Assembly: GCF_009914755.1 (NCBI RefSeq)
Contig: NC_060928.1
Reading direction: 5' to 3' (one strand)
Source of the DNA: the human T2T-CHM13v2.0 reference genome, Homo sapiens
Length of the DNA stretch: 64,000 nt
Below are positions 9,156-51,237 of this stretch, piece after piece. The stretch's first letter is position 1, and every line of letters starts with the position of its first letter. The position numbers and the translations under genes were made by a program. The notes below the pieces were generated by a model. It ran no database searches and had not been told where the DNA came from. It was given only the letters and a program-made list of their open reading frames with translations.

Positions 9156-9986
<831 letters not shown>

Positions 9987-11201: not shown

Positions 11202-11405
11202 CTCATATTTATATTCTTCTATTTTCTCAGTAGTCTGAAGTTTATTAACGTTAGGTATCATTCAACGTCTACAAAATGTAATCAGGTGATACAAGAATGG
11301 TCATGGTAGCATTAATTCCAAGAGCAAAAACAGAACAAATGAAATACCTATTGTTAGGAGAACAGTTGTAAGGTTTTCAAACAATAGACTATTACACTTA
11401 ATATT

Positions 11406-14752: not shown

Positions 14753-15062
14753 ACAACTCTCAACTGATGTCCTTGGACCTCCTTCACATCCATCCTGGGA
14801 AGGTCTTATTCCTCATTCCTGAGATGAGTTCTCTATTTCCTCAATCTGGGTGTTCCTTTTTCTTGATTATATACCCTCATGTTGTGGAACATATCCGCCA
14901 ATAGTTCCTTGAGAGAGGTTGCTGCCAGGTCTTTTTTCCCACAGAGTGTGCATGTCTGGAAATGTTTTTATTCTGGCTGAGCACAGTTCTAGGTTGAAAA
15001 TAACTTTCACTCGGAATATTGGAGGGCTTGCTCCGCAATATTTTAGCTTCCAGAATTGTTAA

Positions 15063-15509
<447 letters not shown>

Positions 15510-26260: not shown

Positions 26261-26765
26261 GCTCCTTGTCAGACAAGATAGAATTTGATGATTGCCCCTG
26301 GTTTTTAACAAGGAGCAATCATCAAATAAGGCAAAATTAGAACAGTATTTTTTTTCTGTTCTTACTTTCTGCTTTTGAGCTGTGTCTTAGATAAATAGAG
26401 GCCTGCCAGATAAATTATTTCTGGATAAATGAGAGACTGTTTTCTTATTTTACATTTGGGAAATTAGAGTCATGGAAATAGGTGGTTTTGCTTTTTTTAG
26501 GTACATCTGTTTTCCCACTGCTGACATAACTTCTAAATTTCAGATCTTTTTCTTTGGTAAACTACACCATGAAATTGATGAAAATGGCTTTATCAATAGT
26601 TTCAGATGCTGTCTGCAAAATAAAGAGGTAAACTCTGCTCCTTTGCTCTTTAGGCATTATTTTCTTTTGGAGGAAATACATGTTTGTCATAGGGCTGCTT
26701 ATTCCCAGGACTCTTAGAAGGAAAGCACATTGTCATGGCTACAGCTGCAGAACAGCTGCTTCTTT

Positions 26766-27106
26766 TTTATTTGTTTTTAGAGGAGGACAACACATTTAGT
26801 TTTATTTTTATCAAATCACAACACTTTCTTTTCCAACTGCTACAAAGTGCATCTACAATATTCTATTACAGATCCACTTTAAAAAGGTTTCCTGTGACAT
26901 TACAGCAAGCCTCTTTTTTCAAACAGGAATAATCCCAAATTCTTCCTCAAATAAAACTAAAAACTCCATTCCAGTAAATGGTAAATACATAAAAATTACA
27001 GTAAGCCAGACACTTAAAAGGACAGCCAAGAAGTCTTCCAACAGTTTATTAGAAAGAATGTAGACATTTAAACAAATCCCCACTGTCATGAACATAAATT
27101 GAGGTT
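26766..27106 (-). pseudogene. Detached distal 3'UTR and poly(A) remnant of the PTGES3 processed pseudogene
   Basis: T-rich tail at 26763-26778, AATAAA on minus ~20 nt before it, left TSD copy ACAGCTGCTTCTTT at 26752-26765 identical to 48046-48059; sequence resembles the PTGES3 mRNA 3' end as recalled. Confidence 0.75.
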
Positions 27107-27122
27107 ACACACATGTATGTTT

Positions 27123-27366
27123 GAGGTTGCAGTGAGCCGAGATTGCACCACTGCACTCCAGCCTGGGTGACAGAGTGAGACTCTGCCTTAAACAAAACAA
27201 AACAAAACACCCACAAAAAGCCAAAAAGGAAACAAAAACGCACCCCAAAGTGATGTTGGTATTACACAGATCTCAAAACCCAGAGAAGTTTGATAGCTCT
27301 TCAATCCCTAGTACATCACTGATGACTCATTGTCATTAGTTTGCAACTGATCTGAAATGCTCCCAG
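27123..27366 (+). repeat. Local ~240-bp duplicate of 28234-28467 (Alu 3' end plus unique flank)
   Basis: Both copies read gaggttgcagtgagccgag...ccccaaagtgatgttggtattacacagatct..aaacccagagaagtttgatag...ctcccag. Confidence 0.92.
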
Positions 27367-27381
27367 GAGTAAATAGTTTGA

Positions 27382-27738
<357 letters not shown>

Positions 27739-27946
27739 TAAAACACACTTTAAAGAATGCGAAATCAAAATAGTCCTTCAGGGCAAAACTTTAAGCAGAT
27801 ATTTAATTGGCCTGATATTTGAGTTTGTGTTCTGAGTCATTTTGGCCTTGAAGGGGGAGAGAAGAGAAATGTAATAGTAGAGGGCGCCTTTATCTTCTGT
27901 CTTTCCACCTACCCTACACACATACATGTATGTTTGTACATATCTA

Positions 27947-28453
<507 letters not shown>

Positions 28454-29272
28454 TCAAAGGCTCCCAGAGCTCTCTGGGATACTAGGAGAGAATGTCCTGA
28501 GATTTTTTTTTAGGGAGCTAGTCAAACCCCTGCTCGGAAACAGGGTTGGACAGTTTTGATAATGGCAGATCACAGGTCAAAGCTCCCAAATTTATATCTC
28601 CTGTCAAGATACTCTTGCTGCCATCGCTAGATTTGCATTTCTGTTACACGGTGACCAAATGTACTCTTAATTTTTTTCTGGTAACCAGAACTTGCTGGTG
28701 GGCATGTATCCTTGGTACGAGTCACTATCACCTCTGGTTATAGCAGTGGAGCAAAGTGGTAACGGGAAAATTCCTAGGTTTTTGGCCTGAGCAAAAGAGT
28801 GGATAGAGGTAAATGACAGGTGGGGAATGTGGGGAGAGAAGCAGGGAGAGTTCAGGCAAAAGAGCTACCATGTCAAGGCCTACAGGTAGGAGTATGGCAC
28901 TTTCAAGGTAATAAGTGAGCTCTGGAGAAATGCCTCACTCTAGGACGTAGTATGTGGGCAACTGAGGAGGTTCAAGAACAAAGTTCAAAAGAGGCCGCCA
29001 GAGATTCATCTAGAGAACCAAGCACTATGGGATTCCCACATCTAAAAATGTTGCCTTCATCCATCCATTCATTCAGTAAACATTTAGCAGTGTAGGACTA
29101 GCATGGTTTGAGGAGGGATGCCCTGGATTTGGAGACCTTAACATGTAACTAGAGAAAACATTGGCATCCTGGGCTGTGGTGGGAACTACCTCCCGACAGG
29201 TAACTCACTGCCAGAGTCAGCAAACTAACATCTGTCTTTTTTCTAACATTTGTATCATATGGAATCACAACT

Positions 29273-30072
29273 TTTTTTTTTTTTTTTTTTTTTTGGAGAC
29301 AGAGTCTTGCTCTGTCACTCAGGGTGGAGTGCAGTGATGCGATCTTAGCTCAGTGCAACCTCTGCCTCCCAGGTTCAAGTGATTCTCCTGCCTCAGCCTC
29401 CTGAGTAGCTGGGACTACAGGCGCCCACCATCATACCCGGCTAATTTTTGTATTTTTTGCAGAGATGGAGTTTCACCATGTTGGCCAGGCTGGTCTCAAA
29501 CTCCTGATTTAAGGTGATCCATCCGCCTCGACCTCCCAAAGTGCTAGGATCACAGGTGTGAGGGAATCACATTTTATACTCCCTTCAAAATACAAGTGTG
29601 TGAAGGAACCAGTGTTTTAATCCAAGCGTGTAAGAATGATTTCAAACAAATGGCGCCCTTTACAAATCAACAAGGAACTACATAAATTTAAAACTTTATT
29701 TTGTGGACAATTCCCATTTACTCTCTTTGTTTTTAGAAAATGGTTAGCCATGGCTGGGCGTGGTGGCTCACGCCTGTAATCCCAGCACTTTGGGAGGCCG
29801 AGATGGATGGATCACCTGAGGTCAGGAGTTGAAGACCACCCTGGCCAAGGTGGTGAAACTCCATCTCTACTAAAAATACAAAATTAGCCGGGCGAGGTGG
29901 TGCATGCCTGTAATTACAGCTACTCCGAGGCCAAGGCAGGAGAATCGCCTAGAACCTGGGAAGGCGGAGGTTGCAGTGAGTTGAGATTGTGCCACTGCAC
30001 TCCAGCCTGGGTGACAGAGAAAGACTCTGTCTCAAAACAAAAAAAAAAAAAACAAAAAAACAAAAACAAAAA
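29273..30072. mobile_element. Divergent Alu pair (minus ~29273-29561, plus ~29752-30072)
   Basis: Alu consensus; TSDs ggaatcaca and aaaa(t/c)ggttagcc. Confidence 0.92.
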
Positions 30073-30199
30073 ACGGTTAGCCTCTTTTATGTTTATTTCA
30101 TTCATGTTTATAAATTTACAACTTGGGCATAATACAGGCATTTGTTTTGTCTTTTCCCCACTTGCTCATATTACAAATGACACAGTATTCCTCCATTGT

Positions 30200-30395
30200 C
30201 CTTTGTGGCGGGTGCAGTTAGATGTCCCCGCGCTGGCATGAGCAGGCCAGGGTTCAAATGCTGCCTTTGTTGCATACCAACTGCAGCTCTGGCATGTAAG
30301 ATGGTAAAAAACAAACAAACAAAACCGCCACCTGCAGAGGACCGTTGTGAGGATTAATGAGGTAGTGTCAGTTTAAGTGCCCCATAACTGGTAGT
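30200..30395 (+). mobile_element. MIR relic
   Basis: gggttcaaat..tgcct... and gttgtgaggattaatgag motifs. Confidence 0.6.
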
Positions 30396-30574
30396 TGCTG
30401 TTTCTGAGTTTATCACGAAACCCCTTATCACGAAAAATTTGTCTCCTTAATCTTTTTTCTTCCTTTCCTGCTTCAATATATCATATGCCTCTGGCAAACC
30501 CATACTCCTGGCGGGCTAGGCGGTTGGATCTTGGCCCCTTCTCTAAGGCTTTTCTTGCAGGTTCCCCCTGCCTA

Positions 30575-30656
30575 TTTATGGGCGGTATAAAAGTTATTGC
30601 GGTTTTTGCCATTAAAAAAAAATCGCAAAACCGCAATTCCTTTTGCACCAACCTAA
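30575..30656. mobile_element. MADE1 (mariner-derived MITE)
   Basis: ~80-bp palindrome aaaagt.attgcggtttttgccatt...gcaaaaccgcaatt.cttttgcaccaacctaa flanked by TA. Confidence 0.88.
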
Positions 30657-30699
30657 TAGATGCTCCAGGCCGAGCTGGGAGGTGTTGGGGTGCACACAA

Positions 30700-31570
30700 G
30701 GAGAGAGGACAGGCTGGCCTGAAGGTCCAGAGAGCCGGCCCGGCAGGGTCAACCCAGCCAGCGGTCACGAAGGGAGGTGGAGTTGGGGGAGGCGACACAG
30801 GGCAGGAAGTGGGGAGGACAAACGGGGTGCACATGGGGACTGTGGCGATGACACAGAAGGGACAGCCGGTTAGAATCTAGGCCCACTTAGGCGATGAAGG
30901 GCAGGTGAAGAAATCCCGTTCCATCTTCCTGTAGTTCCTCCCTTGGGGAGCCCCCATCCTATCCTGCTGTGGACCGGGGCGTCTCCTGGAAGGCCCGCGA
31001 TCGAGATGAGGCTTCCGAGCCGCCCAGAAGGGACTTCGAAGTGTGCGCAGCGGACTCCGCGGTTCCCACGCGCCCCCTAGGGTGGGTGGACGAGCTGGGC
31101 GCCCCCGTGCGGAGAACGGAGGAGGGGTCCGCCATGTAGCTGTTGGAAATGCGGGTGGCCGTGGGGCCCAGCTTGCCGGGCTCCTGGATCCACGTCCAGG
31201 TCGCAGGGGAGGGGCCCGCCGCCCGTTTCTAAGGGCCTGGCTGCATTCCTGCGGTCACGATCAGGGGTCTTTGCTTTCTCCCATCCCCTCCTGGAGAAAG
31301 AACGCAGCTTTTAACGCGTTCTCCTTGGTTGGGCACCTTTCTTGGGAAAGCTCCGCCTACCATTGCCCTTGTACCTGTCCTCTCCTCTCTCCCTTTCCTG
31401 AAGTGACTGCCCGTCTCTTGCACCGTGGTGTGAATGCGTCGAGATCTCGGCGCTGCAGCAGCATCGGAGATTGGATCCAGCCCATGGAGAGGTCCCCAGA
31501 GTCCATTTGTCCGTCCCCAGGGCAGGGGCCTCGGAAGAGCAAGGGGGAGGAGCTGACCTAGCCGGCTGAT
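30700..31570. promoter_or_regulatory. Orphan CpG island (putative promoter/enhancer)
   Basis: GC- and CpG-rich non-repeat stretch; CAGGAAGT ETS site near 30804, CCGCCATGT YY1-like motif near 31129, GC-box-like runs; no recognisable coding exon. Confidence 0.65.
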
Positions 31571-31689
31571 CTTTGTGGCTTAGACAAAATTTAGAGTTTA
31601 TTTGTCCTTCTGACCATGATCTCAGATCAGATGGACAAGATTAGCCTTACACTTAGGAGCGTTCTGGTGCAAGACTAGTGACTTATTTT

Positions 31690-32070
31690 TCCTTCCTTCC
31701 TACCATCCTTCCTTCCTTCCGTTTTTCCTTTCTTCCTCCTGCCCTCCCTCCGTCCCTCCCTTTTTTCCTTCCCTTTCTATCTCTCTCTCATTTTTTTTTT
31801 TTTTTTGACAGGGTCTCACTCTGTTGCTCAGGCTGGAGTGCAATGGCACCATCATAACTCACTGCAGCCTGGACCTCGTGGGCTCAGGTGATCCTCTCAC
31901 CTCAGCTTCCCAAGTAGCTGGGACTACAGGTCCACAAAACCACGCCTGGCTAATTAAATTTTTTTTTTGTAGAGACAGGGTCTCACTATCTTGCCCAGGC
32001 TGGCCTCGAACTCCTGATATCAAGCTATCCTCTCTCCTTGGCCTCCCAAGATGCTAGAATTCCCGGCCAT
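31690..32070 (-). mobile_element. AluJ with (CCTT)n-type pyrimidine microsatellite tail
   Basis: AluJ-type text (cagcctggacctcgtgggctcaggtgatcct, tttttgtagagacagggtctcact). Confidence 0.85.
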
Positions 32071-32523
32071 GACTTTTTTTTTTTCCTTCTTTTTTAACCT
32101 GAAGCTCTATCCCTTGTCAGTAAAGCCAGCAGCTAATGTTTCCTGTCTCACTGTGTGGAGCAAATCTGCAGCCCTGCTGTCATAGCTCTATTGTGAGGAT
32201 CTGTTATACCAGCACCTGTTAACTTGCTTGGCATTTGGAGAAGCTAGGTAAATGTTGTGTGAATGAATAAATGAATGAACCCAGCCAAGTATGTCCCATG
32301 AGCCAAGTACAAGAAGAGTGGACTCTTGTGCTACTCACACTCTGCCTTCATTGTTAAGAAAGGCGCATTTTTCTAACCAAGGCATAAACTCCAAGAGTGG
32401 ATACAATGGACGGGTTAGCCACCTGTTAAGAGAAGTGGAAGTTAAATGATTCATAACATTTTGATTTCAATCTGCTGTCCCACCATTATCAGGTGTATGG
32501 CCATATAAAGAAAATGAAGTTGG

Positions 32524-32880
32524 GGCCAGGCACAGTGGCTCACGCCTGTGATCTCAGCACTTTGGGAGGTTGAGGCGTGCAGATCACTTGAGGTCAGGAG
32601 TTTGAGACAAGCCTGGAGATTATGGTGAAACCCTGTCTCTACTAAAAATACAAAAATTAGCCAGGCCAGGTGGTACTCACCTGTGGTCCCAGCTACTCGG
32701 AGAGGCTGAGGTGGGACAATTGAGGTGGGACAATTGCTTGAACCTGAGGTGGAGGTTACAGTGAGCTGATATTGAGCCACAGCATTCTAGCCTGGGCGAC
32801 ACAGTGAGACTCCATCCCCCACCCCCCCACCCCGCCCACACACACACACACACACACACAAAAGAAGAAAAAGAAATGAA
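32524..32880 (+). mobile_element. Alu with internal 14-bp tandem duplication and (CA)n tail
   Basis: tgaggtgggacaat repeated twice near 32707-32734; C-run and (CA)n at ~32816-32860. Confidence 0.85.
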
Positions 32881-33750
32881 GTTGGATTCTTTAATTGGGG
32901 GACAAGGGTTTAGATAATCCGCAGCATGGACTTTGAGATAGCTTATGTTTGGGGTATTTTCTTTCATACATTTAGTCTCCTAATTATGTGATCAGGCTAA
33001 TTTTTAAGTATTGAGTAATTTTTAGGAGATGTTGAGACTAAGTTGAAAGAAAACCTAGCCCCTGTGCACCATGAGCCTAGAGTTTAGAGCTGAGTTGGCA
33101 TAGTCAACTATGAAAGCTGTTGGGACAGTGGCAATGTTGAAATTCGTAAGAAGAGATCATTGTGAACTGGATATTGATGCAGGATGCCTTAGAAGGTCAT
33201 GGGTTAGGCCTTGAAAGAATGTACAAGAACAAAGGAATTGGGTGTTATTTTATTTTTAAAATTTTATTTACTTTTGAGTCAGGGTCTCACTCTATTGCAT
33301 AGGCTGCAGTACAGTGGCCCGATCACAACACACTGCAGCCTCCATCTCCTGGGCTTAAGTGATCCTCCTGCCTCAGCCTCCCATGTAGTTGGGACTACAG
33401 GTACGCACCATTATGACCAGCTAATGTTTAATGTTTTAATATTGAATTTTAAAAATTTTTGTAAAAAGAGCATTGGAAATGATTTATTTCCAAGATTCAT
33501 GATCGCAGACAATGTGTGGTCAGCAAGTGGTTGTAAAGCAAATCTGTTTTCTCCATGTGACTGGAAGGAAGAAACACTGACAGAAGAGTGAGTTCTTTGG
33601 CTTCCTGATCCTGGCTGAGCCTGTCAGTGCTTCTGTCCCCTCCTTCTTGGCCAGTGGCCGTGTCTCTGGACAGATTCTGTTCTTAGAAGGGTGCTGGTGA
33701 GCCAGAGATGACATATATGCAGAAGTAGGTTTTGAAAAAGTTCAGTGTCA

Positions 33751-36450
<2,700 letters not shown>

Positions 36451-36528
36451 GAAAAAGTTCAGTGTCCTAGAATTGGACTCCCCATGGCTGCAAACTCTCC
36501 TGGGAGCCACTGTAAGCCATGTGTCTGT

Positions 36529-38003
36529 GGGTGTACACACAGAGTGTACACACAATGTGATAGTAGGAGTAATATCTCAGGGTGTACAGCCACTGTGATA
36601 TTATGAATAATATCACAGGGTGTACAGCCACTTAATATTGATATTAAGAGTAATATATCCCTTCAATATATGAATAATATATCCCTTAAATATAAGAATA
36701 GTATAATATAATAATAATATATGAATAATATGAATAATATATGTACACCCCCTGTGATATTAGGAGTAATATCTCCCCTAGATATTATGAACAATACCAC
36801 AGGGTGTACACCCTCTGTGATATTAGGAGTAATATCTCCCTTATATATAAAACGAACGGTACCACAGGTGTACACCAACTGTGATATTAGGAGTAATATC
36901 TCCGTTATATATTATGAATAATGTCAAAGAGTGTACCCCCACTGTGATATGAGGAGTAATATTACCCTTAGATATTATGAATAATAACACAGGGTGTACA
37001 TCCAATGTGATATTAGGAGTAATATCTCCCTTATATATTATAAATAATGTCAAAATGTGTACCCCCACTGTGATATGATGAGTAATATTACCCTTAGATA
37101 TTATGAATAATAACACAGGGTGTACATCCAATGTGATATTAGGAGTAATATCTCTCTTAGATATTAGGAATAATATCACAGGGTATAGAGCCACTGCTAT
37201 ATTAGCATTAAGATCTTTCTTAGATATTATGAATAATATATCACAGGGTGTACACCCACTGTGATATGAGAAGTAATATCTTTCTTAGATATTACAAATA
37301 ATATCATAGGGTGTACACCCACCATGACATTAGGAGTAATAGCTCCCTGAGATATTATGAATAATATCAGAAGGTGTATACCCACTGTGAAATTAGAAGT
37401 AATATCTCCCTTAGATATTACTAGAAGATATTACTTCTAATTTAGTAATATCTCCCTTAGATATTACTTCTAACTTATTAATATCATAGGGTGTACACCT
37501 ACTGTGATATTAGGGGTGATATCTCCCTTAGCTATTATGACTATTGTCACAGGGTGTATAACCACTATGATATTAGGAATAATATCTCCCGTAGATATTA
37601 CAAATAATATCAAAGGGTGTATATACAGGGTATAAACCCACTGTGATATTAGTAGTAATATCTCCCTTAGATATTACAAATAAAATCACGGGGGGACACC
37701 TACTCTGATGTTAGGAGTACTATCTCCTTTAGCTATTACAAATAATATCACAGAGTGTACACCTGCTGTGATATTAAGAGTGATATCTCTCTTAGGTATC
37801 ACGAATAATATCACAGGGTGTACAGCCTCAGCGATATTAAAAGGAATATTTTCCTTAAATATTATGAATAATATCAAACGATGTACACCTACTGTGATAT
37901 TAGGAGTAATGCCTTCCTTAGATATTCCAAATAATATGAAAGGGTGTATACCTAATGAGATATTAAGAATAATGTCTCCCTTAGATACTATGAATAATGT
38001 CAC
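36529..38003 (+). repeat. SATR-family satellite, AT-rich 63-bp unit sub-array
   Basis: Unit GATATTAGGAGTAATATCTCCCTTAGATATTATGAATAATATCACAGGGTGTACACCCACTGT; 126-bp dimer period at 36921/37047. Confidence 0.85.
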
Positions 38004-41000
38004 CCCACTGTGATATTGTTCATAATATCCAAGCGGGAAGAGCATGATATTACTGCCAATATCGCAGGGGGTGTACACCTTCCTGTGATATTGTTCATAA
38101 TATCAAGGAGGGGAGAGGTTGATATTAATTCTAATATAGCTGGGGTTGTACACATCCCTGTGGTACTGTTTGTAATATACAAAAGGGGAGAATATGATAT
38201 TATTCCCAATATTGCAGGAGGTGTACACCTCCCCGTGATATTGTTCATAATGTCCAGGGGGCAGAAGATGATATCACTGCCAATATCGCAGGGGGTGTAC
38301 ACCTTCCTATGATATTGTTCCTAATAACCGGGGGGAAGAGGATGATATTACACGCAACATCACAGGGGCTGTACGCCCCCCCATCATATAGTTTGTAATA
38401 TTCAGGGGGAAAGAAGATGATATTACTCCCAATGTCACAGGGTTTGTATACTTCTATGTGACATTGTTCGTAATATCCGGGGGTGGGGTGGGGAGAGAAT
38501 GATATTACTCCCAATATTGCAGAGGCTGTACACCCCCCTCTGATATTGTTTGTAATATTTAGGAAGGAGAAAATGATATTACTCCCTATATCGCAGGGGG
38601 CTGTACACCCCTCTGTGATATCATTCGTAATATCCAGAAGAAGACAGGATGATATTACTCCCAATATCGCAGGTGGTGTACACCCCTCTGTGATATTGTC
38701 CATAATATCCAGGTTGGAGAGGATGATATTATTTCCCATATCGCATTGTGTGTACACCCCCCTGTAATATTGTCCATAACATTCAAGGCTAAAGAGGATG
38801 ATATTATTCTCCATGTCGCAGAGTGTGTACAGCCTGCTGTGATACTGTTCGTATCATCCAGGGAGGGAGAGGATGATATTTCTCCCCATATCGCAGGTGG
38901 TGTACACCCCCTTGTGATATTGTCCGCAACATCCGGGGTGGGGAAGGATATTAATCCCCATATCGCAGAATGTGTACACCCCCCTGTAATATTGCCCGTA
39001 ACATCCAGAAGGGGAGGGGATGACATTACTTCCCATATTGCAAGGCGTGTTCACCCCCCTGTAAAATAGTCCATAACATCCAGAGGGGGAGGGGATGATA
39101 TTGCTCCCCATATCGCAGGGGAATATTGTCCCCTGTGATATTGTCCGCAACATCCGGGGCAGGGGAGGATGATATTAATCCCCATATCACAGAATGTGCA
39201 CACCCCCCTGTAACATTGTCGGTAACATTCAGAGGGGGAGGGGCTGATATTACTCCCCATATCGCAGGGGGTGTACAACTTCCTGTGATATTGTCCGTAA
39301 TATCCAGGGAAGAGAGGATGATGTTCCTCCCCATAAACAACCTGCGATATTGTCCATAATATCCAGGGAGGGAGAGGATGGTGTTATTTTCCATATTGCA
39401 GGGAATGTACACCCCACTGCGATACTGTCCGTAATAACCAGGGGTGGAGAGGATGATGTTACTCTTTATTTCACAAGGAATATACACCCCCCTGCGATAT
39501 TGTCCGTAATAACCAGGGGTGGAGAGGATGATGTTACTCTTTATTTCACAAGGAATATACACCCCCCTGCGATATTGTCCGTAATAACCAGGGGTGGAGA
39601 GGATGATGTTACTCTTTATATCACAAGGAACATACACCCTCCTGCGATGTTGTCCGTAATAACCAAGGGTGGAGAGGATGATGTTACTCTTTATATCACA
39701 AGGAACATACAACCCCCTGCGATATTGTTCGTAATATCCAGGAGGAGAGAGGATGATGTTACTCCCCATATCGCAGTGGGTGTACACACCCCTGCGAAAT
39801 TGTTTGTAATATCCACGGGGGGAGGAGATGATGTTACTCCCCATATTGCCAGTAGTGTACATCCCCCTGCATATTGTTCATAATACTCAGGGGGAGAGAA
39901 AATGATATTACTCCACATATCGCAGGGGATGTACACACCCCTGCAATATTGTTCGTAATATTTGGGGGGGAGATGATGATATTACTCCCCATATCGGAGG
40001 GGGTGTATACCCCACTGCGATATTGTTAATAATATCCAGGGGGGAGATGATGTTATTCCCAATATCGTAAACACCCTTCGTGTACATTTTCTGTGACATT
40101 GTTTGTAATATCCAGGGTGGCAGAGGATGATATTCCTCCTAATATCGCAAGATTTATACACTCTCTTTTGATGTTGTTCGTAATATCCAGGAGAGGAGAG
40201 GGTGATATTACTCCAAATATCATAGGGGGATACAACCCCCTGTGATATTGTTCGCAATATTCAGGGGAGGAGAGGATATTACTCCCCAGATAGCAGGGAG
40301 GGTACACTCCCCTGGGATATTGTTCATAATTTTCAGGGGTGGGAGAGAATGATATTACTCCCAAAATCACAGGGGGTGTACACCCCCCTGTGATATTCTT
40401 TGTAATATCCAGGGGTGGAGAGTATGATATTACCCTCAATATCGCAGAAAGTGTACACCCCCTTTGTTATATTGTTCGTAATATCCGGGGCGGGGGGAGG
40501 AGACAATGATATTACTTCCAATATCGCAGGGGCTGTACACCCCCCTGTGATATTATTGCTAATATCCAGTGGGGGAGAAGATGATATTACTCCCAATATC
40601 ACAGGGGGTGTACACCCTTCTGTGATAGTATTCGTAATATCTAGGTGGGGAGAGGATGATATTACCTCCAATATCGCAAGGCCTGTACACCCTCCTGTGA
40701 TGTTGTTCATAATATCCAAGGGGGTAGAGGATGATATTATTCCCTGTATCGCAGGGGATGTGGACCCCCTGTGATATTGTTTGTAATATCCAGGAGGAAA
40801 GAGGATGATATTACTCCCAATATCGCAGGTGGTGTACACACCCCTGTGACATTATTCCTAATATCCAGCGGCAGGGGAAGGATGATATTACTCCCAATAT
40901 TGAAAGAGGTGTACACACCTCTGTGATATTGTTCGTAATATCCAGGTGGGGAGAGGATGATATTACTCCCAATATTGCAGAAAGTGTACACCTCCCTGTG

Positions 41001-42088
41001 ATATTGTTTGAAATACACAGACGGAGAGAAGATGATATTACTTCCCTGTGATATTGCTTGTAACATGCAAAAGGGAAGAGGATGATACTACTCCCCATAT
41101 CGCATGGGGTGTACATTCACCTTTGACATTGTTCGTAATACCCGAGGGGGAGGATAATATTACTCCCAATATCGCAGCAGGTGTACACACCCAGTGATAT
41201 TATTCGTAATATCTAGGGGAAAGAGAATAATATTACTCCCAATATCGCAGGGGGTGTACATTCTCCTGTGATATTGTTCATAATATCCAGGGTGGGAGAG
41301 GATGATACTACTCCCAATATCGCAGAGGGTGTACACCCAACTCTGATATTGTTCGTAATGTCAAGTGGGGAGAGGATGATATTACTTCCAATATCACAGA
41401 GGGTGTGCACTCCCATGTGATATTGTTCATAATACCCGGGAGGAGGAGAGGATGATATTACTGTCAATATCCAATATCACAGGGGGGGAACACCCCACTG
41501 TGATATTGTTTGTATTATCCAGAGGGGGAGAGGATGATATTACTTTCAATATCGCAGATGGTGTATGCCCCTTTGTGATAGTGTTCATAATATACAGGGG
41601 GGGGAAGAATGATATTACTCCCAATATCACAGGGGGTGTACACACCTTTTGTGATATTGTTTATAATAGCCAAGGTAGGAGAGGATGATATACGAACAAT
41701 ATCGCAGGAAGTGCACACCCCCCTGTGATATTCTTCGTAATATCCAGGGGGTAACAGGATGATATTACTCCCAATATTGCAGGGGGTTTACACTCTTCTG
41801 TGATTTTTTTTAATGTCCTGGGGGGAGAGAATGATATTACTGTTAATGTCACAAGCGGTGTACACCATTTTTGGTGATATTGTTCCTAATATCGAGGGGG
41901 GGAGAGGATGATATTACTCCCAATATCGTAGGTTGTGTACACACAGCCTGTGATATTGTTCCTAATAGCCAAAGCGGGAGAGGATAATATTACTTTCAAT
42001 ATCGCAGGGGATGTACACTTACAGAGTGATATTGCTCCTAATATCCAGGCCAAAAGAGGATATTACTCTTGATATCGCAGAGGGGGAC
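38004..42088 (-). repeat. SATR-family satellite, ~75-bp unit sub-array in reverse orientation
   Basis: Unit GATATTGTTCGTAATATCCAGGGGGGAGAGGATGATATTACTCCCAATATCGCAGGGGGTGTACACCCCCTGT; exact 75-bp period at 39451/39526/39601/39676. Confidence 0.9.
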
Positions 42089-45000
42089 ACTCCCCTGCAA
42101 TATAGGGAGTAATATCATCCTCTCCCCCCGGAAATTATGAACAATATCACAGGTGGGTGTACACACCCTGCGATATTGGGGGTAATATCATTTTCTTTCC
42201 ACCAGGATATTACACACAATATCACAGAAGGGTTTACATCCCCCTGCGATATTGGGAGTAATATCATCCTCTCTCCCCTCTCTAGATATTAGCAACAATA
42301 TCACAGGTGGGTGTACACCTGCTGTGATATTGGGAGTAATATCATCCTTTTCACCCCCTGGATATTAGGAACAATATCACAAGGGGTGTGTACACCCCCT
42401 GCGATATTTGGAGTAATATCATGCTCTCCCCCTCCCCGGATACTACAAACAATATCACAGGGGAGTGTACACACCCTGAGATATTGGGAGTAATATCATC
42501 CTCTCCTCTCCTGAATATTATGAACTATATTGCAGAATGGTGTACACCCCCTGTAATATTGTGAGCAATATTATCTTCTCCCTCCCTGGATATTATAAAC
42601 AATATTACAGGGGGTGTACAACCCCTGAGATATTGGGAGTAATATCATTTCCCCCCCAGTGGATATTATAAACAATATCACGGAGGTTTGGGCCCCCTGG
42701 GATATTGAAAATAATATCATCCTTCCACCCCCTGAAAATTATGAACAATATCACAGGAGAGTGTACACTCCCTGCGATATGGGAAGTAATATCATTTTCT
42801 CCTCCTCTGGATATTAGGAACAGTATAACAGGAGGGTTTACACATCCTGCCATATTGGGAGTAATATGCTCTGCCACCCTGGATATTACAAACAGTATCA
42901 CAGAGGATGTACACACAGAATGTTTACGATACTGGGAGTAATATCTCCCCCCCATCCGGACATTACAAACAATATCGTAGCGGGTGTACACCCCCCTCGA
43001 TATGAAAAGGAACATCATCTCCTTTCCCTGTGGATATTATGAACAATATCACAGGGGTGTGTATACCCCCTTTGATATGGGGAGTAAAATCATCCTCTCC
43101 CCCCTTGGATATTATGAACAATATCGCAGTGGCATGTAGATTTCCTGTGACATGAAGAGTAATATCGTCCTCTCGCCCCCTGGTTATTACGGACAATATC
43201 GCAGGGGGGTGAACGCTCCCTATGATGTGAAGAGTAACATCATCCCTTCCCCCCTGGATATTATGGACAATATCGTAGGGGGGTGTACAACCCCTGGGAT
43301 ATGGGGAGCAACATCATTTTCTCCCTCCCCGGATGTTACCAACAATATCTCAGGGGGTTGTACACTCCCTATGATGTGAAGAGTAACATCATCCTTTCCC
43401 CCCTGGATATTATGGACAATATCGTAGGGGGGTGTACAACCCCTGGGATATGGGGAGCAACATCATTTTCTCCCTCCCCGGATGTTACCAACAATATCAC
43501 AGGGGGGTGTACACTCCCTGGGATATTGGGGGTAATATCATCCTCTTTTCCCCTGGATATTACGAACAATTTCACCGGGTGGAGTACACCTTCTATGATA
43601 TTGGGAGTAATATTATCCTCTCCCCTTATGGAAATTGCGAACAGCATCCCGGAAGGTGTACATTCCCTGCGATGTTCGGAGTAATATCATCCTCTCCTCA
43701 CTGGATATTTGGAACAATATAAAAGGGGGTATACACCCCCTGCAATAGTTGGAATAATATCATCCTCACTCCCCTTGGATATTATGAACCATATCACAGG
43801 GGGGTGTACGCCCCCTGCGATACTGAGAGTAATATCATCCTCTACCATTCTGGACATTATGACGTATATCACAGGGGGGTGTACACCCCCTATGATATTG
43901 GGAGTAATATCATCGTCTTCCCCGTGGATATTAGGAACAATATCACAGGAGGGTGTACACCGTTTGTGATATTGGTAATAATATCATCCTCTCCCCCTTC
44001 TGGATATTATGAACAATATCACAGGGGGGTGTACACCCACTGCGATATTGGGAGTAATATCATCCTCTCCTTCCCTGAAAATTACAAAGAATATCATGGG
44101 GTAGGGTGTACACCTTCTGCGATATTGGGATTAGTATCTTCCTCTCTCTCCCTGCTTATTACGAACAATATAACAGGAGGTTGTACACCCCTGCGATATT
44201 GTGAGTAATATCATCCTCTCCCTTCCTGGATATTACGAACAACTTCACAGGGGGATGTACACCCCTTGCGATATTAGTAGTAATATCATCCTCCCTCCCG
44301 GATATTCCCAACAATATCAGAAGGGTGTGTACACCACCTTGATAGTGGGTGTAATATCTTCCTCTCCCCCTTTTATTACTACAAACAACATCACAGGGGG
44401 GTGTACACCCCCTGCAATATTGGAAGTAGTATCAATTGGAAGTGAACAACCCTTGCGATATTGAGAGTAATATCATCCTAACCCCTTGTGGATATTACAA
44501 ACAATATCACTGGGGGGTGTTCACACAGCATGTTTCCGATATTGGGATTAATATCATCCTTTCCTCCCCTGGATATTACGAACAATATCACAGGGGCCTG
44601 TACACCCCCTGGGATATTGGGAGCAATATCATCATCTCTCCCCATGGATATTACAAATAATGTTACAGGGGGATGTACACCCCTGTGATATTCGGAATAA
44701 TATTGTCCTCTCCCTCTCTGGATATTATGAGCAATGTCACAGGGGGCTGTACACCCTTTGCGATATTGGGAGTAATATTATTTTCTCCCCTTCTGGATAT
44801 TACGAACGATATCACAAGAAGGTGTACACCCCCTGCGATATTGTTGAGTAATGTCATCCTCTCCCCACCCCGGATATTGCGAACAATATGACAAAGTTGT
44901 ACACTCCCTGGGATATTGGGAGTAATATCATCCTCTTCTCCCCTGGATATTATGAACAATGTCACGGGGGGTGTACACCCCTAGCGATATTGGGAGTAGT

Positions 45001-47040
45001 ATCATCCTCTCTTCCCTTGAATAACGCGAACAATATCAGAGGGGAGTGTTCATCCCGGGTGATATTGGGAGTAATATTATCCGTTCCCTTCCTGAAAAAT
45101 ATGAACAATATCACAGAAGGTGTACACCCCTGCGATATTGGGAGTAACATCATCCTTTCCCACCCTGAGTATTATGAACAATATCACAGGGGGGTGCACA
45201 CCCCACTCGATATTGGGAGTAATATCACCCTCTTCCTCCTAGATATTACGAACAATATCACATAGGGGTGTACACCCTCTGTGATATTAAGTGTAATATT
45301 ATACTCTTCCCCCTTGGATATTATGAACAATATCCCAGGGGGGTGTACACCTCCTGCGATATGGGGTGTAATAGCATCCTCTCCCCTTTTGGATATTATG
45401 AAAAATATCACAGGGGGGTGTACAACCCCTGTGATATTGGGAGCAACATAATTCTTTCCCCCCTGGATATTTCAAAAATATCACAAGGGGATGTACACCC
45501 CTTATGATGTTTGTAGTAATATCATCCTCTCTCCCCTGGATATTACGAACAATATCACAGGAGGGTGTACACTCCCTGGGATATTGGGAGTAATATCATC
45601 CTCTTTCCCCCTGTATATTACGAACAATATCACAGGGGCGTGTACACCCCCTGCGTATTGAAAGTAATATCATTCACTTCCCCCCTGGATATTGTATATC
45701 ATATCACAGGGGCGTGTACACCCTCTGCTACATTGGGAGAAATATCATCGTCTCCTCCCGTGGATATTATGAGCAATATCACAGGGGAATGTACCCCGCC
45801 TGCGATATTGGGAGTAATATCCTCTCCCACCCTGAATATTACAAACAATATCATAAGGGGGTGTACATCCCCTGCGATATTGGGAGTAATATCCTTTTCC
45901 ACCCTGAATATCATGAACAATATTATAGGAGAATGTACACCACCTGCGATATTAAGAGTAATATCATCCTTTCCCCCCATGGATATTACAAACAATATCA
46001 CAGTGTTGTGTACACCCCCTGTGATATTGGGAATAATTTTATCCTCTCCCCCCGCTCGATATTATGAAAAATATCACAGGAAGGTGTACATTCTCTGTGA
46101 TATTGGCAGTTATATCATCCTCTGTTCTAGTTAATATTACGAAGACTATCACAGGGGTATGTACACCTCCTGAGATATTGGGAGTAATATCATCCTATCT
46201 CCCCCTGGAAATTAGGAACCATATCACAGGGGAATGTACATACCCTGCAATATTGGGAGTAGCATCATCTTACCCTCCCCTGCTCTTTACAAATAGTATC
46301 ACAAGGGGCTGTACACCCTCTGCAATATTGAGAGTAATATCATCCTCTCTTCCCCTGGATATTACGAACAATACAGCAGGGGGTGTACACACAGGGTTTT
46401 TATGATATTGGGAGTAATATCATTCTCTCCCCGCCCTGGATATTTCGAACAGTATCACAGGGGTTGTACACTCCCTGCGACATTGGGAGTAACATCATCC
46501 TCTCCTTCTCTTGATATTACGAACAATATCACAGCAGAGTGTACATCCCCTGCGATATTGGCAGAAATATCAACCTCTCCCTCTCTGGATATTACCAGCA
46601 ATATCATAGGGGGTTGTACACCCCCTTCAACACTGGGAGTTATATCATCCTCTCCTCCCACTGGATATTATGAAAAATATTACAGAAGGCGTACACACAG
46701 GGTGTTTACGATATTGGGAGTAATATCATCTTCCCCCTCCCTGAATATTATGAACAATATCACGGGATGGGGTACATCCCCTGTGATATTGAGAGTAATG
46801 TCACCCTCTCCCTTCCTGGATATTATAAACAATATCACAGGGGGGGTGCACACCCCTCCTATATAGGGAGTAATGTTATCCTCTCCCCCTCCCTGGATAT
46901 TTCGAACAATATCACAAGGGGAATGTACTCACCCTGCGATATGGAGACTAATGTCATCCTCTCCCTCCCTGGATATTATGAATAATATCACAGGGGGGTG
47001 TGCACTCTCTGTGCTCTGGGGAGTAATGTCATTCTCTCCC
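42089..47040 (+). repeat. SATR-family satellite, ~75-bp unit sub-array in forward orientation
   Basis: Unit GATATTGGGAGTAATATCATCCTCTCCCCCCTGGATATTACGAACAATATCACAGGGGGGTGTACACCCCCTGC (reverse complement of the previous block). Confidence 0.9.
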
Positions 47041-48045
47041 CTATAAACTAAAATTTTGTTCTCTTTATCTAAGCCCAGAGCTTCCTATCACGTCAGTATC
47101 TATGTTATGAAGAAAAGGAGACTTAGGTGAGATGTTTTTATTTATCACAACTGCTGCATCAATTGCCTAGGACCTCAACAGCTTCATGAAAGTCTGGGAA
47201 ATGTTCATGCATAAGGTTATTGCCTTAGCTGACTTCAAATTGCCCCATACAATGGTACATATAAACCCTTAGTGAAGCCTTTTAAAAAACAAACAGGTTG
47301 AAAAATGGGTTAAAGTAGGCAAATACAGCATCTGCCTTTAGGGCTATCAACTGAGGAATTCTCTCAATTATGAAATCTTGCGGAGAAGTTATTTTCTTTC
47401 TCAAAATCCAGGTGATGAAATATTTCTTACTCCAGATCTGGCATTTTTTCATCATCACTGTCTTGTGAATCATCACCTGCTTCATCTACTTCTGGTAAAT
47501 CTACATCCTCATCCCCACCCATGTTGTTCATCATCTCGGAGAAACGATCAAAATTAGACCTGTCTTCATCTGAACCATCTTCCCAGTCTTTCCAATGATT
47601 GAAGTCCATACTAAGCCAGTTAAGCTTTGCCCTTTCTTTTGTTAACCTTGGCCATGACTGGCCAGATTCTCCTTTTCGTAAACAACATAAAATTGATCTG
47701 TCCGTTCTTTTATGCTTGGAATCATTTGGATCAATAGAGTAAAAAAGACCAATTTCATTTAAATGCTTAAAATTATCACTTCCTCCAAGACAACTGAATG
47801 TAAGTTTGGATTTTTCAAAATTTACATTAACATCCTTATTGTCTTCAACACAAGATTCAGTGAAGACACAGTCCCTTCGATCGTACCACTTTGCAAAAGC
47901 AGGCTGCATTGTGAATGCGGCAGGGGGACGGGCGAACGGGTGGGCGGGCGGCTGTCTGGCGGCGGCTGCTCTCCGGTGGGGACTCCGCGTTTTCTCCCTG
48001 GTCGCCGCTGCCTCTTCTCGCTCCCCTCAGGCGACGGCGGCAGCT
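47041..48045 (-). pseudogene. PTGES3P3: PTGES3 (p23) processed pseudogene, 5' part: 5'UTR, intact ORF 47427-47909 and proximal 3'UTR
   Basis: Intronless 160-aa ORF ~91% identical to recalled human p23 (MQPA.AKWYDRR...DEKMPDLE); GC-rich 5'UTR to ~48045; TSD at 48046-48059. The P3 symbol is inferred from its recalled position next to HPF1. Confidence 0.9.
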
Positions 48046-48235
48046 ACAGCTGCTTCTTTATACGTTTTTCTGCTTAGATCAGGGAAAACTGGCTGGATTA
48101 AATTAGCCACAGGAGGGCTCCACTGCAGTTTCTGGAAAAGAAAATTCTGCAGTCATACTTTCTGGTACACAGTTGTATCTGTGCAGTCTTCAATCGGCCA
48201 CGCCTATTTATAAACGTGAAAGATGAAGCCAGGGT

Positions 48236-48574: not shown

Positions 48575-49915
48575 TTAACAAAAATTCGAGAGAACTTTCT
48601 GGAAACCTAGAGTATATTTCTGTGGGAAAAACACAAAATTGAGACTTGAAATGATAAGCTCTGATTTGTTCATTTTTTTAATCTTAAACATTTAAAGTTT
48701 CACAGCAACAGCTTATATTCAGGGTATGCAATTTATAGGTAGCTAATGCATGAAAAATATGATTACAGTTTTGTATTACCCATTATTTTTCTCTTGTCAA
48801 CCACAAAGAATTTCATTATTATCTAATCTGTGGCCCAGATGCTGCCTGTCTTTGTTTCATCTATAACAGCATTTCCTATCATGTGGCTACAGGATAATAA
48901 TTGTGATTACAAAAGGAAAAAAGTACAGGAACTCACAGGTGAAACAGAACTGAACACAACTTTTACAGAACTCATCAGCTCCTCACTGTAAATCTCCTAG
49001 ATTGGACTCTCATGTACCTTTTTTTTTTTTCCTTTTTTCCTTGAAACATTTGCTGCTCTTTTTAGAAATCACAAACAGGGTTTCAAAAGTTATTAAAAAA
49101 AAAAAGCCTGAAGAAAGAATCCAAAATTTGAGACCATACCTACTCTAAGAAGTGGTGAAAACCACATGGAAAAATATCAAGTATTTTGTGTCTAATGCTT
49201 TCAGAATTCCCTCTTGTACTTCACTCACAGGAGAAGTTATAGGAACCCCTACAGGAATTACAATGACAGGGCCAGACCCAGGAACAGCCTGCACACTCGA
49301 GTTTTGAAGTTTTAACTCATTCTCTCTCCAGCTGTCTCACACTTGTTGTTTGTTGTTTTGTTCGTTTCTTTCTAATTTAGAAAAAAAAAAAGTAGTAGTC
49401 AGGGAGTCTAGTCAAATACATCGGAGTTGGGGGGAATTATTAGATACCCAAATCTTAGTGATGCATTTGACTATTTTTCGGGATGAAAAGCATATATGGG
49501 TAGACATTGGCTTGGAGGGGAAATGGTGACACAGGAGAGATGAAGGAGCAGCACTTTGAAGTTGATTTTTGAAGAAAAACCATTAGTTTTCATCATTGTA
49601 TAAGGACATCACTCTATGAATCATAGCAATAGGCAATTTGCAATTTAAAAAATAAATAAAAAGGCATCCTTGTGGCTAAATGGCAGTTTAGATTACAGTT
49701 CCTAAGGCCCACTGAAAATCATAAGCTACTGTCTTTCCTGAGCACATAAATGAATTTTTCTTCCATTTTGACAGCTCTATCCCTCCAGGTCATCCAGCTA
49801 TTTTATCCCTTAATATTGGCTACTCTTCCTCCTCTCTCAGACGTCTCACTTTTTGCACCCAGCCCCCAAACACACTAAAAGATTAAACTCAAGCAGCCTT
49901 CCCTATTGGGAAACC

Positions 49916-50218
49916 TTTTTTTTTTTTTTTTGAGACAGAGTCTTTGCTCTGTCGCTCAGGCTGGAGTGCGGTGGTGCCATCAATCTCGGCTCACTGCGAC
50001 CTCTGCCTCCCGGCTTCAAGCGATTCTCCTGCCTCAGCCTCCTGAGTAGCTGGGATTACAGGGACACACCACCATGCCTGGCTAATTTTTGTATTTTTAG
50101 TAGAGACTGGGTTTCACCATGTTGGCCAGGCTAGTCTCAAACTCCTGGGCTCAAGTGATCCACTTGCCTCAGCCTCCCAAAAGTGCTGGGATTACAGGTG
50201 TGAGCCACTGTGCCCAGC
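49916..50218 (-). mobile_element. AluS element
   Basis: Alu consensus with T-tail. Confidence 0.92.

Positions 50219-50925: not shown

Positions 50926-51237
<312 letters not shown>

What the first reader, a model, noticed from the sequence alone, without database searches (positions are those of the whole stretch)
26752..48059. PTGES3 retrocopy split by a ~20-kb foreign block; one 14-bp TSD brackets 21 kb
Seen: the 5' half of the retrocopy (47041-48045) ends abruptly against the satellite, with no poly(A). A poly(A)-tailed mRNA end in the same orientation lies at 26766-27106. The identical 14-mer ACAGCTGCTTCTTT flanks both (26752-26765 and 48046-48059), and the right copy reads TAT|AAAG on minus, resembling an L1-endonuclease site. 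Recalled: the 26.8-27.1 kb text resembles the distal PTGES3 3'UTR, and a middle part of the UTR seems to be missing. Inference: 27107-47040 was inserted into the UTR after retrotransposition. It carries MIR, L2-like and AluJ relics that should predate a retrocopy still ~91% identical to p23, so it was probably copied or moved from another locus (segmental duplication or transposition). The pseudogene would then date and precisely delimit the event.
Basis: partly seen in the sequence, partly recalled or inferred. Interest (0 to 1): 0.85.

Follow-up and report, generated by a model that had tools for sequence, protein, structure and literature searches.

The report
Processed pseudogene split by old duplication
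A PTGES3 (p23) retrocopy on human chromosome 4 was cut in two, tens of millions of years ago, by about 17-20 kb of DNA copied in from elsewhere, most likely chromosome 7; this is a known kind of event, seen here with unusual base-pair clarity.

Summary
Window 47041-48045 (minus strand) and 26781-27106 are collinear pieces of one PTGES3 retrocopy. 416 bp of the 3'UTR are missing between them. The exact 14-mer ACAGCTGCTTCTTT lies flush against both outer ends.

The 19.9-kb block between the pieces is not an in-place pile-up of repeats. Its unique DNA and Alus have a paralogue on chr7q22 (C7:100816016-100821368) followed by the same satellite. A second paralogue on chr9p carries the chr4 left flank (HPF1 exons 1-4), the left TSD, the 3' piece and the block, but not the 5' piece.

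Pairwise divergences are 8.8-10.1%, close to a star tree.

The left junction is complex: 17-bp and 244-bp copies of sequence from 0.8-1.1 kb further inside the block. Chr7 homology begins exactly where the second copy ends.

The chr4 copy lies inside a retrocopy and the chr9 copy derives from chr4. That leaves chr7q22 as the only surviving candidate donor.

Best reading: L1-mediated retrocopy, then a templated DNA insertion with a 416-bp loss, then a chr4-to-chr9 duplication.

This is a known kind of event and a clean example.

The parts
26752..26765 (.). Left copy of the 14-bp target-site duplication ACAGCTGCTTCTTT
   Evidence: Exact match to 48046-48059. Also present in the chr9 paralogue, next to the same poly(A) remnant.
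26766..26780 (-). Degraded poly(A) tail of the retrocopy
   Evidence: T-rich on the plus strand, between the TSD and the last parent-matching base at 26781. The chr9 copy has a longer T-rich run at the same place.
26781..27106 (-). 3' piece of the PTGES3 retrocopy (distal 3'UTR)
   Evidence: 94.5% over 330 alignment columns to C12:56631341-56631662. Only 6 substitutions in 318 covered sites.
27107..27123 (+). 17-bp templated insertion (m'), a copy of the block's own 27918-27938
   Evidence: Read directly. In the chr9 copy the 3' piece runs through this motif straight into the equivalent of 27939 onward.
27124..27366 (+). 244-bp templated insertion (A'), a direct copy of 28234-28467 (Alu 3' end plus flank)
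   Evidence: 86.9% to 28234-28467. It differs by 24, 22 and 25 of 211 sites from the A segment of chr4, chr9 and chr7, so it is as old as the block copies.
27367..32833 (+). Core of the foreign block: unique DNA plus Alus, shared with chr7q22 and (from 27918) with chr9p
   Evidence: A single 5525-column BLAST match to C7:100816016-100821368. Matches C9:14986104-14991211. A genome search with 30059-31678 found full-length copies only on C4, C7 and C9.
32834..34070 (+). Continuation of the block, found only on chr4 and chr9
   Evidence: Genome search. The Alu at 32524-32833 has both target-site duplications on chr4 and chr9, so this stretch was originally contiguous with the core. Chr7 keeps only the left one.
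34071..36451 (+). Later L1 insertion, chr4 only, with an inverted 5' part
   Evidence: 17-bp TSD AAAAAGTTCAGTGTCCT at 34054-34070 and 36452-36468. Absent at this place on chr9. Its two halves are inverted relative to two contiguous L1 3' ends on chr9.
36538..38003 (+). 63-bp-unit satellite
   Evidence: Tandem Repeats Finder. The same order, block then 63-bp units then 75-bp units, is seen on chr9.
38001..42084 (-). 75-bp-unit satellite, reverse orientation
   Evidence: The chr9 arrays have only this orientation once turned to the window's strand.
42092..47040 (+). 75-bp-unit satellite, forward orientation, abutting the 5' piece
   Evidence: The chr7q22 array is forward throughout.
47041..48045 (-). 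5' piece of the PTGES3 retrocopy: 5'UTR, full 160-codon ORF at 47427-47909, and proximal 3'UTR
   Evidence: Collinear with the C12 exons and with the retrocopies on C1 and C2. ORF found, with a CS domain. RefSeq's PTGES3P3 annotation covers only 47156-48043.
48046..48059 (.). Right copy of the 14-bp target-site duplication

Best explanation
Three old events are stacked at one site.

(1) A near full-length PTGES3 mRNA was retrotransposed by the L1 machinery into chr4 at TAT|AAAG, producing a 14-bp target-site duplication.

(2) The new retrocopy then broke inside its 3'UTR. 416 bp were lost, and the gap was filled by at least 17.5 kb of ordinary genomic DNA (unique sequence, old Alus, and a 63/75-bp satellite) copied from another locus. 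Among surviving copies only chr7q22 can be that locus. The left junction carries two short direct copies (17 bp and 244 bp) of sequence from 0.8-1.1 kb further inside the block. This points to a copying repair process that switched template several times before settling (break-induced replication or MMBIR-like, or gap repair from an ectopic template). It does not look like cut-and-paste or retrotransposition.

(3) Soon afterwards, more than 40 kb of chr4 was duplicated to chr9p, ending inside the satellite. The duplicated stretch ran from HPF1 exons 1-4 through the left flank, the TSD, the 3' piece, the block and the reverse-oriented satellite.

Later changes were:
- an L1 insertion on chr4;
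- a 794-bp deletion on chr9 between the two 17-21-bp repeats;
- loss on chr7 of the stretch after the last shared Alu.

Shown: the anatomy, the paralogies and the relative divergences. Inferred: the repair mechanism, chr7 as the donor, and the absolute age.
For: Retrocopy:
- Intronless collinearity with the C12 exons.
- Poly(A) remnant and exact 14-bp TSD.
- 416-bp internal gap. The intact retrocopy on C2 has 415 bp at the same place.

Foreign block:
- A genome search with 30059-31678 found full-length copies on C4, C7 and C9 only. The other listed matches were all shorter than 100 bp, to a small palindromic repeat.
- C7:100816016-100821368 equals window 27367-32833 and is followed by 11 kb of the same satellite.
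- No indel longer than 51 bp separates the three copies within 27918-32833, so all five Alus there predate the copying.

Order of events:
- Site patterns over 4724 sites give 190 chr4-unique, 212 chr9-unique and 250 chr7-unique changes. After removing CpG sites the counts are 123, 122 and 169 of 4200. This fits ((chr4,chr9),chr7) with a short inner branch.
- The chr9 copy contains the HPF1 exons with introns, the left TSD, the 3' piece and the same PTGES3|17-mer junction. It has no 5' piece.

Junction:
- A' abuts the first chr7-homologous base: A' ends at 27366 and chr7 homology starts at 27367.
- A' is equidistant from the three A copies (22-25 of 211 differences).
- Segment M1 (27367-27917) differs from chr7 at 62 of 554 sites, so it is not a later addition.

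Donor by elimination:
- The chr4 copy lies inside a retrocopy.
- The chr9 copy carries chr4 flanks.
- On chr7 the 558 bp to the left of the block are single-copy.
Against: - No outgroup genome could be examined, so the empty site and the donor's ancestral state are inferred.
- Chr7q22 is not a pristine donor. It lacks the equivalent of 32834-34068 and the right TSD of the Alu at 32524-32833. Its satellite layout also differs from chr4's.
- Immediately left of the 558-bp flank, chr7q22 carries another duplication (89-92%) shared with chr7p. So the locus is itself a mosaic and could be a recipient.
- Junction microhomology is only 0-2 bp by eye. That does not discriminate between repair pathways.
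- The retrocopy shows fewer lineage-specific non-CpG changes (21) than expected from the block's chr4 terminal rate (30-33), P about 0.02-0.05. This is the wrong direction if the retrocopy is the oldest event.
- Satellite units on chr4 are no closer to those on chr7 (best 77%) than to arrays on C3, C14 and C15.
Confidence: 0.7

Rival explanations
1. The block did arrive as copied DNA after the retrocopy, but chr7q22 is not the donor. Either chr7q22 received its 5.4-kb piece from chr4, or both received it from a locus that no longer exists in the human genome.
For: Chr7q22 lacks the right TSD of the Alu at 32524-32833 and everything equivalent to 32834-34068, so its copy is the truncated one. 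Chr7q22 is a mosaic: 5.4 kb just to the left is duplicated with chr7p, and the chr7p copy also abuts the same satellite. That suggests satellite-adjacent sites accept duplications. The three-copy distances alone cannot give a direction.
Against: The chr7 copy starts within 0-3 bp of the internal A'|M1 junction on chr4. This is expected if chr4 copied from chr7 starting there. It is a coincidence of roughly 1 in 1000 if chr7 copied from chr4. Only three copies exist, and two of them cannot be the original.
Confidence: 0.2
2. The retrocopy insertion and the capture of the block were one event: a stalled or aberrant L1-primed integration intermediate was resolved by copying about 17 kb of genomic DNA before rejoining the same cDNA or mRNA 416 nt upstream.
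For: The retrocopy is not measurably older than the block copies. At most about 1 of 315 sites in the 3' piece is a derived change shared by chr4 and chr9. The chr4 retrocopy has fewer changes than expected. The left junction shows repeated template switching.
Against: No known mechanism returns to the same template 416 nt further on after 17 kb of DNA-templated synthesis. The outer ends of the retrocopy are entirely ordinary (TSD, poly(A), near full length). The dating deficit is only P about 0.02-0.05 and may be chance or sequence context.
Confidence: 0.04
3. Nothing foreign arrived. The 20 kb accumulated in place through nested transposon insertions and satellite growth inside the UTR.
For: Part of the interval is of this kind: the L1 at 34071-36451 with its own TSD, and satellite arrays that can grow in place.
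Against: More than 3 kb of non-Alu sequence in the block exists on chr7 next to a single-copy flank. All five Alus in 27918-32833 are shared with chr7. 416 bp of UTR are missing and the block ends have no TSD or poly(A).
Confidence: 0.02

Closest known systems
Interchromosomal segmental duplication by duplicative transposition, with secondary 'duplication of duplications' (as described for primate genomes; recalled from the literature, e.g. Bailey and Eichler)
   Same: A block of more than 10 kb of mature genomic DNA, with its own old repeats, was copied to a non-homologous chromosome. Alu and satellite sequences lie at its boundaries. The recipient region was then re-duplicated to a third chromosome, producing a mosaic.
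   Different: It is older and more diverged (8.8-10.1% substitutions; 87-90% BLAST identity with gaps) than the usual 90% or higher catalogue cut-off. The acceptor is a processed pseudogene, so the pre-insertion sequence is known base for base from the parent mRNA.
Replicative template-switch rearrangements (break-induced replication with template switching, FoSTeS/MMBIR; names recalled)
   Same: Loss of sequence at the acceptor. A long, processive copy of a donor. A junction holding two short templated segments, in direct orientation, taken from nearby donor positions.
   Different: Microhomology at the four junctions is only 0-2 bp. The event is ancient, and its replicative nature cannot be tested from sequence alone.
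SATR1/SATR2 satellite-associated repeats that mark integration points of core duplicons (Xiao/DA) and flank inverted duplications in macaque
   Same: Passages read in PMC5088589 and PMC12466775 describe dispersed satellites that demarcate duplication breakpoints. Here one dispersed 63/75-bp satellite family sits at the chr4 right junction, at the end of the chr4-to-chr9 duplication, next to the chr7q22 copy, and next to the chr7p paralogue.
   Different: HERV-E and OR7E partners were not looked for. The divergence here suggests an age greater than the roughly 25 Myr stated for Xiao/DA in the abstract of PMC2700803.
Ordinary L1-mediated processed pseudogene (PTGES3P3 as annotated)
   Same: Intronless, with a poly(A) remnant, a 14-bp TSD and an AT-rich nick site. 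The ORF is evolving neutrally (14 non-synonymous to 4 synonymous changes).
   Different: It is split into two pieces 19.9 kb apart. The RefSeq annotation covers only the 5' piece.

Membership tests
L1-mediated processed pseudogene | Collinear with the spliced mRNA, no introns | tested here: met
   The 5' piece matches C12 exon after exon, and the retrocopies on C1 and C2 end to end. One small exon (C12:56634203-56634268) was matched but was not in the loci used for the counts.
L1-mediated processed pseudogene | Poly(A) tail at the 3' end | tested here: met
   A 15-nt A-rich remnant at 26766-26780 on the minus strand. The chr9 copy has a longer one.
L1-mediated processed pseudogene | Target-site duplication flush with both ends | tested here: met
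   The exact 14-mer occurs at 26752-26765 and 48046-48059, against 0.03 expected matches.
L1-mediated processed pseudogene | Nick site resembling TT|AAAA | tested here: met
   The minus strand reads TAT|AAAG at the right TSD. The consensus itself is recalled.
Segmental duplication (catalogue definition of at least 1 kb and at least 90% identity; definition recalled) | At least 1 kb of non-repeat paralogy | tested here: met
   5.4 kb shared with chr7, and more than 30 kb shared with chr9.
Segmental duplication (catalogue definition of at least 1 kb and at least 90% identity; definition recalled) | At least 90% identity | tested here: inconclusive
   Counting substitutions only, identity is 91.2% (chr4 vs chr9), 90.4% (chr4 vs chr7) and 89.9% (chr9 vs chr7) over 4724 sites. 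With gaps, BLAST identity is 87-90%. This is borderline.
Replicative template switching (MMBIR/FoSTeS) | Templated insertions from nearby donor sequence at the junction | tested here: met
   A 17-bp copy of 27918-27938 and a 244-bp copy of 28234-28467, both in direct orientation.
Replicative template switching (MMBIR/FoSTeS) | Microhomology of 2-5 bp or more at each switch | tested here: inconclusive
   0-2 bp at the four junctions by eye. A longer PTGES3-like motif at the start of the chr7-homologous part was no better than about 10% of random window pairs.
SATR1/SATR2 satellite family | Sequence match to the family consensus | not testable with these tools
   No repeat library is held. The passages read in four papers (PMC12466775, PMC2700803, PMC5088589, PMC3606032) give no unit length or sequence that matches the 63/75-bp unit.
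p23/PTGES3 protein family | CS domain | tested here: met
   PF04969, 28.4 bits against a cut-off of 21.3.

The most novel reading that the evidence does not exclude
The dispersed 63/75-bp satellite is not a passenger. It may be the recurrent break or landing point of an early wave of interchromosomal duplications (chr7q22 to chr4, chr4 to chr9, chr7p with chr7q22). This wave would date to around the catarrhine-platyrrhine split, before the Xiao/DA wave. The split retrocopy would then be a rare before-and-after record showing that such duplications are laid down by break-induced, template-switching replication that starts in unique DNA and ends in the satellite.
Probability: 0.25. Interest if true: 0.55.

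Novelty: new member of a known kind. Interest (0 to 1): 0.4.

Why it matters
For old segmental duplications the acceptor site before insertion is almost never known. Here the parent mRNA supplies it base for base. One can therefore read off the exact loss (416 bp), the absence of a TSD, and a multi-step templated junction.

That makes this locus a good worked example of how duplicative transposition happens. It also provides a marker for primate phylogeny, with three nested events at one site. And it shows that PTGES3P3 is under-annotated: its 3' piece lies 20 kb away from the annotated part.

It does not reveal a new kind of mechanism.

Tried and rejected
1. A PTGES3-like motif at the first chr7-homologous bases looked like a long microhomology. 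A local-alignment score of 9 was reached by 9.7% of 5000 random window pairs, so this was dropped.

2. I tried to use the pseudogene as a clock to show it predates the block. It fails. The retrocopy has 33 of 1222 lineage-specific changes at all sites and 21 of 1139 at non-CpG sites. That is fewer than the 30-33 expected from the block's chr4 terminal rate, not more.

3. I considered that the simple chr9 junction is ancestral and that chr4 gained 27124-27917 later. This was rejected. Segment M1 (27367-27917) differs from chr7 at 62 of 554 sites and A' is equidistant from all three A copies, so both are as old as the block. A deletion between two 17-21-bp direct repeats explains the chr9 state.

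4. I checked whether the L1 at 34071-36451 is orthologous to the L1s on chr9. It is not. It has its own TSD and an inverted 5' part.

5. I tried to use satellite units to trace the donor. The best identity to chr7 (77%) equals that to arrays on C3, C14 and C15, so this is uninformative.

6. I tried to name the satellite from papers. The passages read in four papers give no usable unit length or sequence. A search of PMC2700803 for six cytoband strings gave 0 hits.

As a result, the small PTGES3 exon at C12:56634203-56634268 was left out of the substitution counts, and the chr7p locus was examined only through one 3.3-kb locus.

9. The literature search for 'PTGES3P3' returned 3 papers. By their titles and abstract openings, none concerns its structure (search listing only).
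Full report
**Observation**

The 14-mer ACAGCTGCTTCTTT occurs exactly twice in the 64-kb window, at 26752-26765 and 48046-48059. One further site has a single mismatch. Dinucleotide-preserving shuffles give a mean of 0.03 matches.

The held genome is the window's own assembly, so the parent gene could be searched directly.
- Window 26766-27106, read on the minus strand, matches G000:C12:56631341-56631662 at 95%. It also matches retrocopies on C2 and C1, and a locus on C9.
- Window 47000-48100 (minus strand) matches C12 exon by exon. It matches the last-exon stretch C12:56632079-56632498 at 92%, and retrocopies on C1 and C2 end to end.
- BLAST of the C12 locus against the window places the breaks at 27106 and 47041.
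- The 416 parent bases between the breaks have no match in the window. The intact C2 retrocopy has 415 bp at that place.
- The ORF at 47427-47909 is a full 160 codons with a CS domain.

One detail differs: '91%' is the identity with gaps. Counting substitutions only gives 48 differences in 1228 covered sites.

**What the block is**

Tandem Repeats Finder shows that 36538-47041 is a satellite: 63-bp units up to 38003, then 75-bp units. The 75-bp units are in reverse orientation from 38001 to 42084 and in forward orientation from 42092 to 47005.

The remainder, 27107-34070, is unique DNA interspersed with Alus. An L1 at 34071-36451 has its own 17-bp TSD and is absent from the chr9 paralogue, so it arrived later.

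A genome search with the non-Alu stretch 30059-31678 found full-length copies on C4, C7 and C9 only. All other listed matches were shorter than 100 bp, to a small palindromic repeat. A search with 32834-33746 found its unique part on C4 and C9 only.

**The chr9 copy**

I fetched 80 kb of chr9. It is an inverted paralogue of window 85 to 34011. It contains:
- HPF1 exons 1-4 with their introns;
- the left flank;
- the left TSD and the poly(A) remnant;
- the PTGES3 3' piece;
- the block from 27918 onward;
- 63-bp and then 75-bp satellite in the same order and orientation as on chr4.

It has no PTGES3 5' piece and no match to the right flank.

Because it carries chr4 gene sequence and half a retrocopy, it is a secondary copy of the already-split chr4 locus. 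Its far end lies within the reverse-oriented satellite.

**The chr7 copy**

I fetched 80 kb of chr7q22. C7:100816016-100821368 aligns with window 27367-32833 in a single match. It is followed directly by 11 kb of the same satellite, all in forward orientation.

The 558 bp to its left are single-copy in the genome. Further left, C7:100810001-100815457 is duplicated at 89-92% with C7:7195089-7200432, and that chr7p copy also abuts the same satellite.

The satellite family is dispersed. The first look gave 395 candidates, of which 5 were scored, with arrays on C3, C7, C14 and C15.

**The left junction**

Reading the three copies side by side gives the following order on chr4:
1. PTGES3 UTR, ending at 27106.
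2. 17 bp (27107-27123) that repeat the block's own 27918-27938.
3. 244 bp (to 27366) that repeat 28234-28467.
4. From 27367 onward, sequence collinear with chr7.

Chr7 homology therefore begins exactly where the second fill-in ends.

The 244-bp fill-in differs from the chr4, chr9 and chr7 originals at 24, 22 and 25 of 211 sites. It is thus as old as the split between the copies.

On chr9 the UTR runs through a single 19-bp version of the short motif straight into the equivalent of 27939 onward. This is what a deletion between the two direct repeats would leave.

The alternative is that chr4 gained 27124-27917 later. That is disfavoured, because 27367-27917 differs from chr7 at 62 of 554 sites, no less than the rest of the block.

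At the right junction the satellite meets the UTR at 47040/47041 with about 1 bp of shared sequence.

A longer similarity between the UTR break and the first chr7-homologous bases proved no better than 9.7% of random window pairs. I do not rely on it.

**Order and age**

A three-way alignment of 27900-32840 gave 4724 sites with a base in all three copies. The unique changes were 190 on chr4, 212 on chr9 and 250 on chr7, with 15 sites different in all three. Pairwise divergences are:

| Pair | Divergence |
|---|---|
| chr4 vs chr9 | 8.8% |
| chr4 vs chr7 | 9.6% |
| chr9 vs chr7 | 10.1% |

. Without CpG sites the unique counts are 123, 122 and 169 of 4200. The picture is unchanged by excluding Alus or columns near gaps.

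This is nearly a star tree, with a short branch joining chr4 and chr9, as the structure requires. No indel longer than 51 bp separates the copies in this stretch. All five Alus there were therefore already present when the copies were made.

Using recalled human-macaque and human-marmoset divergences, these values suggest roughly 35-45 million years. This is an inference, not a measurement.

The retrocopy gives no older date. With the parent and the C2 retrocopy used to polarise changes, its chr4-lineage changes are 33 of 1222 at all sites and 21 of 1139 at non-CpG sites. The block's chr4 terminal rate predicts 30-33 (P 0.02-0.05).

In the 3' piece, 3 of 315 sites are shared by chr4 and chr9 against the parent. 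Two of 317 sites there look like changes in the parent itself.

So the three events were close together in time. The deficit in the retrocopy is unexplained, and chance or AT-rich sequence context are the simplest reasons for it.

**Direction**

The block must have existed somewhere before it entered the retrocopy. Of the three surviving copies:
- chr4's lies inside a retrocopy;
- chr9's carries chr4 flanks;
- that leaves chr7q22.

The exact coincidence between the start of chr7 homology and the chr4 fill-in junction fits copying that began at that point of a chr7 template.

Against a simple story, the Alu at 32524-32833 has both of its target-site duplications on chr4 and chr9. On chr7 only the left one remains, and the satellite starts right after the A-tail. 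Chr7 has therefore since lost about 1.2 kb or more, and its satellite layout differs from chr4's. Chr7q22 is also a mosaic of duplications.

I put chr7 as donor at about 0.7 and a lost donor or the reverse direction at about 0.2.

**Mechanism**

Several features exclude retrotransposition of the block and in-place accumulation:
- loss of 416 bp at the acceptor;
- no TSD and no poly(A) at the block ends;
- a long collinear copy;
- two direct templated fill-ins taken from within about 1 kb of where the copy starts.

They fit repair of a break by copying an ectopic template, with early template switches before processive synthesis. Which pathway was used cannot be told from the 0-2 bp junction overlaps.

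**Comparison with what is known**

This is an interchromosomal segmental duplication followed by re-duplication, a known kind of event. Passages read in PMC5088589 and PMC12466775 describe SATR1/SATR2 satellites marking duplication breakpoints, and the abstract of PMC2700803 describes the Xiao/DA duplicons. Whether the present satellite belongs to that family could not be tested.

A full-text search for 'PTGES3P3' returned 3 papers. By their titles and abstract openings, none is about its structure (listing only).

I rate the finding a new member of a known kind. It is interesting as a clean natural record rather than as a surprise.

Noticed in passing
window 48664-51221: An inverted, near-identical copy lies about 86 kb to the right on the same chromosome (G000:C4:173237472-173240029). 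Identity is 99% over the first 1.25 kb and 96% over the next 1.3 kb. Its boundary is only about 600 bp from the retrocopy's right TSD. It is a young inverted repeat pair that could mediate inversion.
   Followed up: partly
window 47427-47909 (minus strand): The retrocopy keeps an uninterrupted 160-codon p23 ORF with a CS domain. Its differences from the parent exons are 14 non-synonymous to 4 synonymous, which is the neutral ratio, so the open frame looks like chance survival.
   Followed up: yes
window 34054-36468: An L1 3' portion with a 17-bp TSD. Its first ~1 kb is inverted relative to its last 1.4 kb when compared with two contiguous L1 copies on chr9. This is the twin-priming pattern (name recalled). 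It is specific to chr4.
   Followed up: partly
window 85-16170 versus G000:C9:15001305-15015651: Chr9p holds an unprocessed partial copy of HPF1 (exons 1-4 with introns) at about 88-90% identity. The paralogy runs off the left end of the window, so its full extent is unknown.
   Followed up: no
window ~30585-30665: A ~75-bp palindromic repeat that matches many loci on both strands (758 first-look candidates, 40 scored). It resembles a mariner-derived MITE such as MADE1 (name recalled, not tested). It is present in all three block copies.
   Followed up: no
G000:C7:7193589-7200432 and C7:100810001-100815457: A separate intrachromosomal duplication between chr7p and chr7q22 (89-92%). At chr7p it ends about 125 bp from an array of the same 63/75-bp satellite. 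At chr7q22 it ends 558 bp from the block.
   Followed up: partly
window 26781-27106 and 47041-48045: The chr4 retrocopy has about one third fewer lineage-specific non-CpG substitutions than the adjacent block predicts (21 against 30-33, P 0.02-0.05). In the 3' piece, chr4 has 3 unique changes against 9 on chr9, out of 315 sites. This is unexplained.
   Followed up: partly
window 24868-25490 and 25654-25808: Two stretches of the left flank have no counterpart in the chr9 paralogue. They are either insertions on chr4 or deletions on chr9. They were not examined.
   Followed up: no
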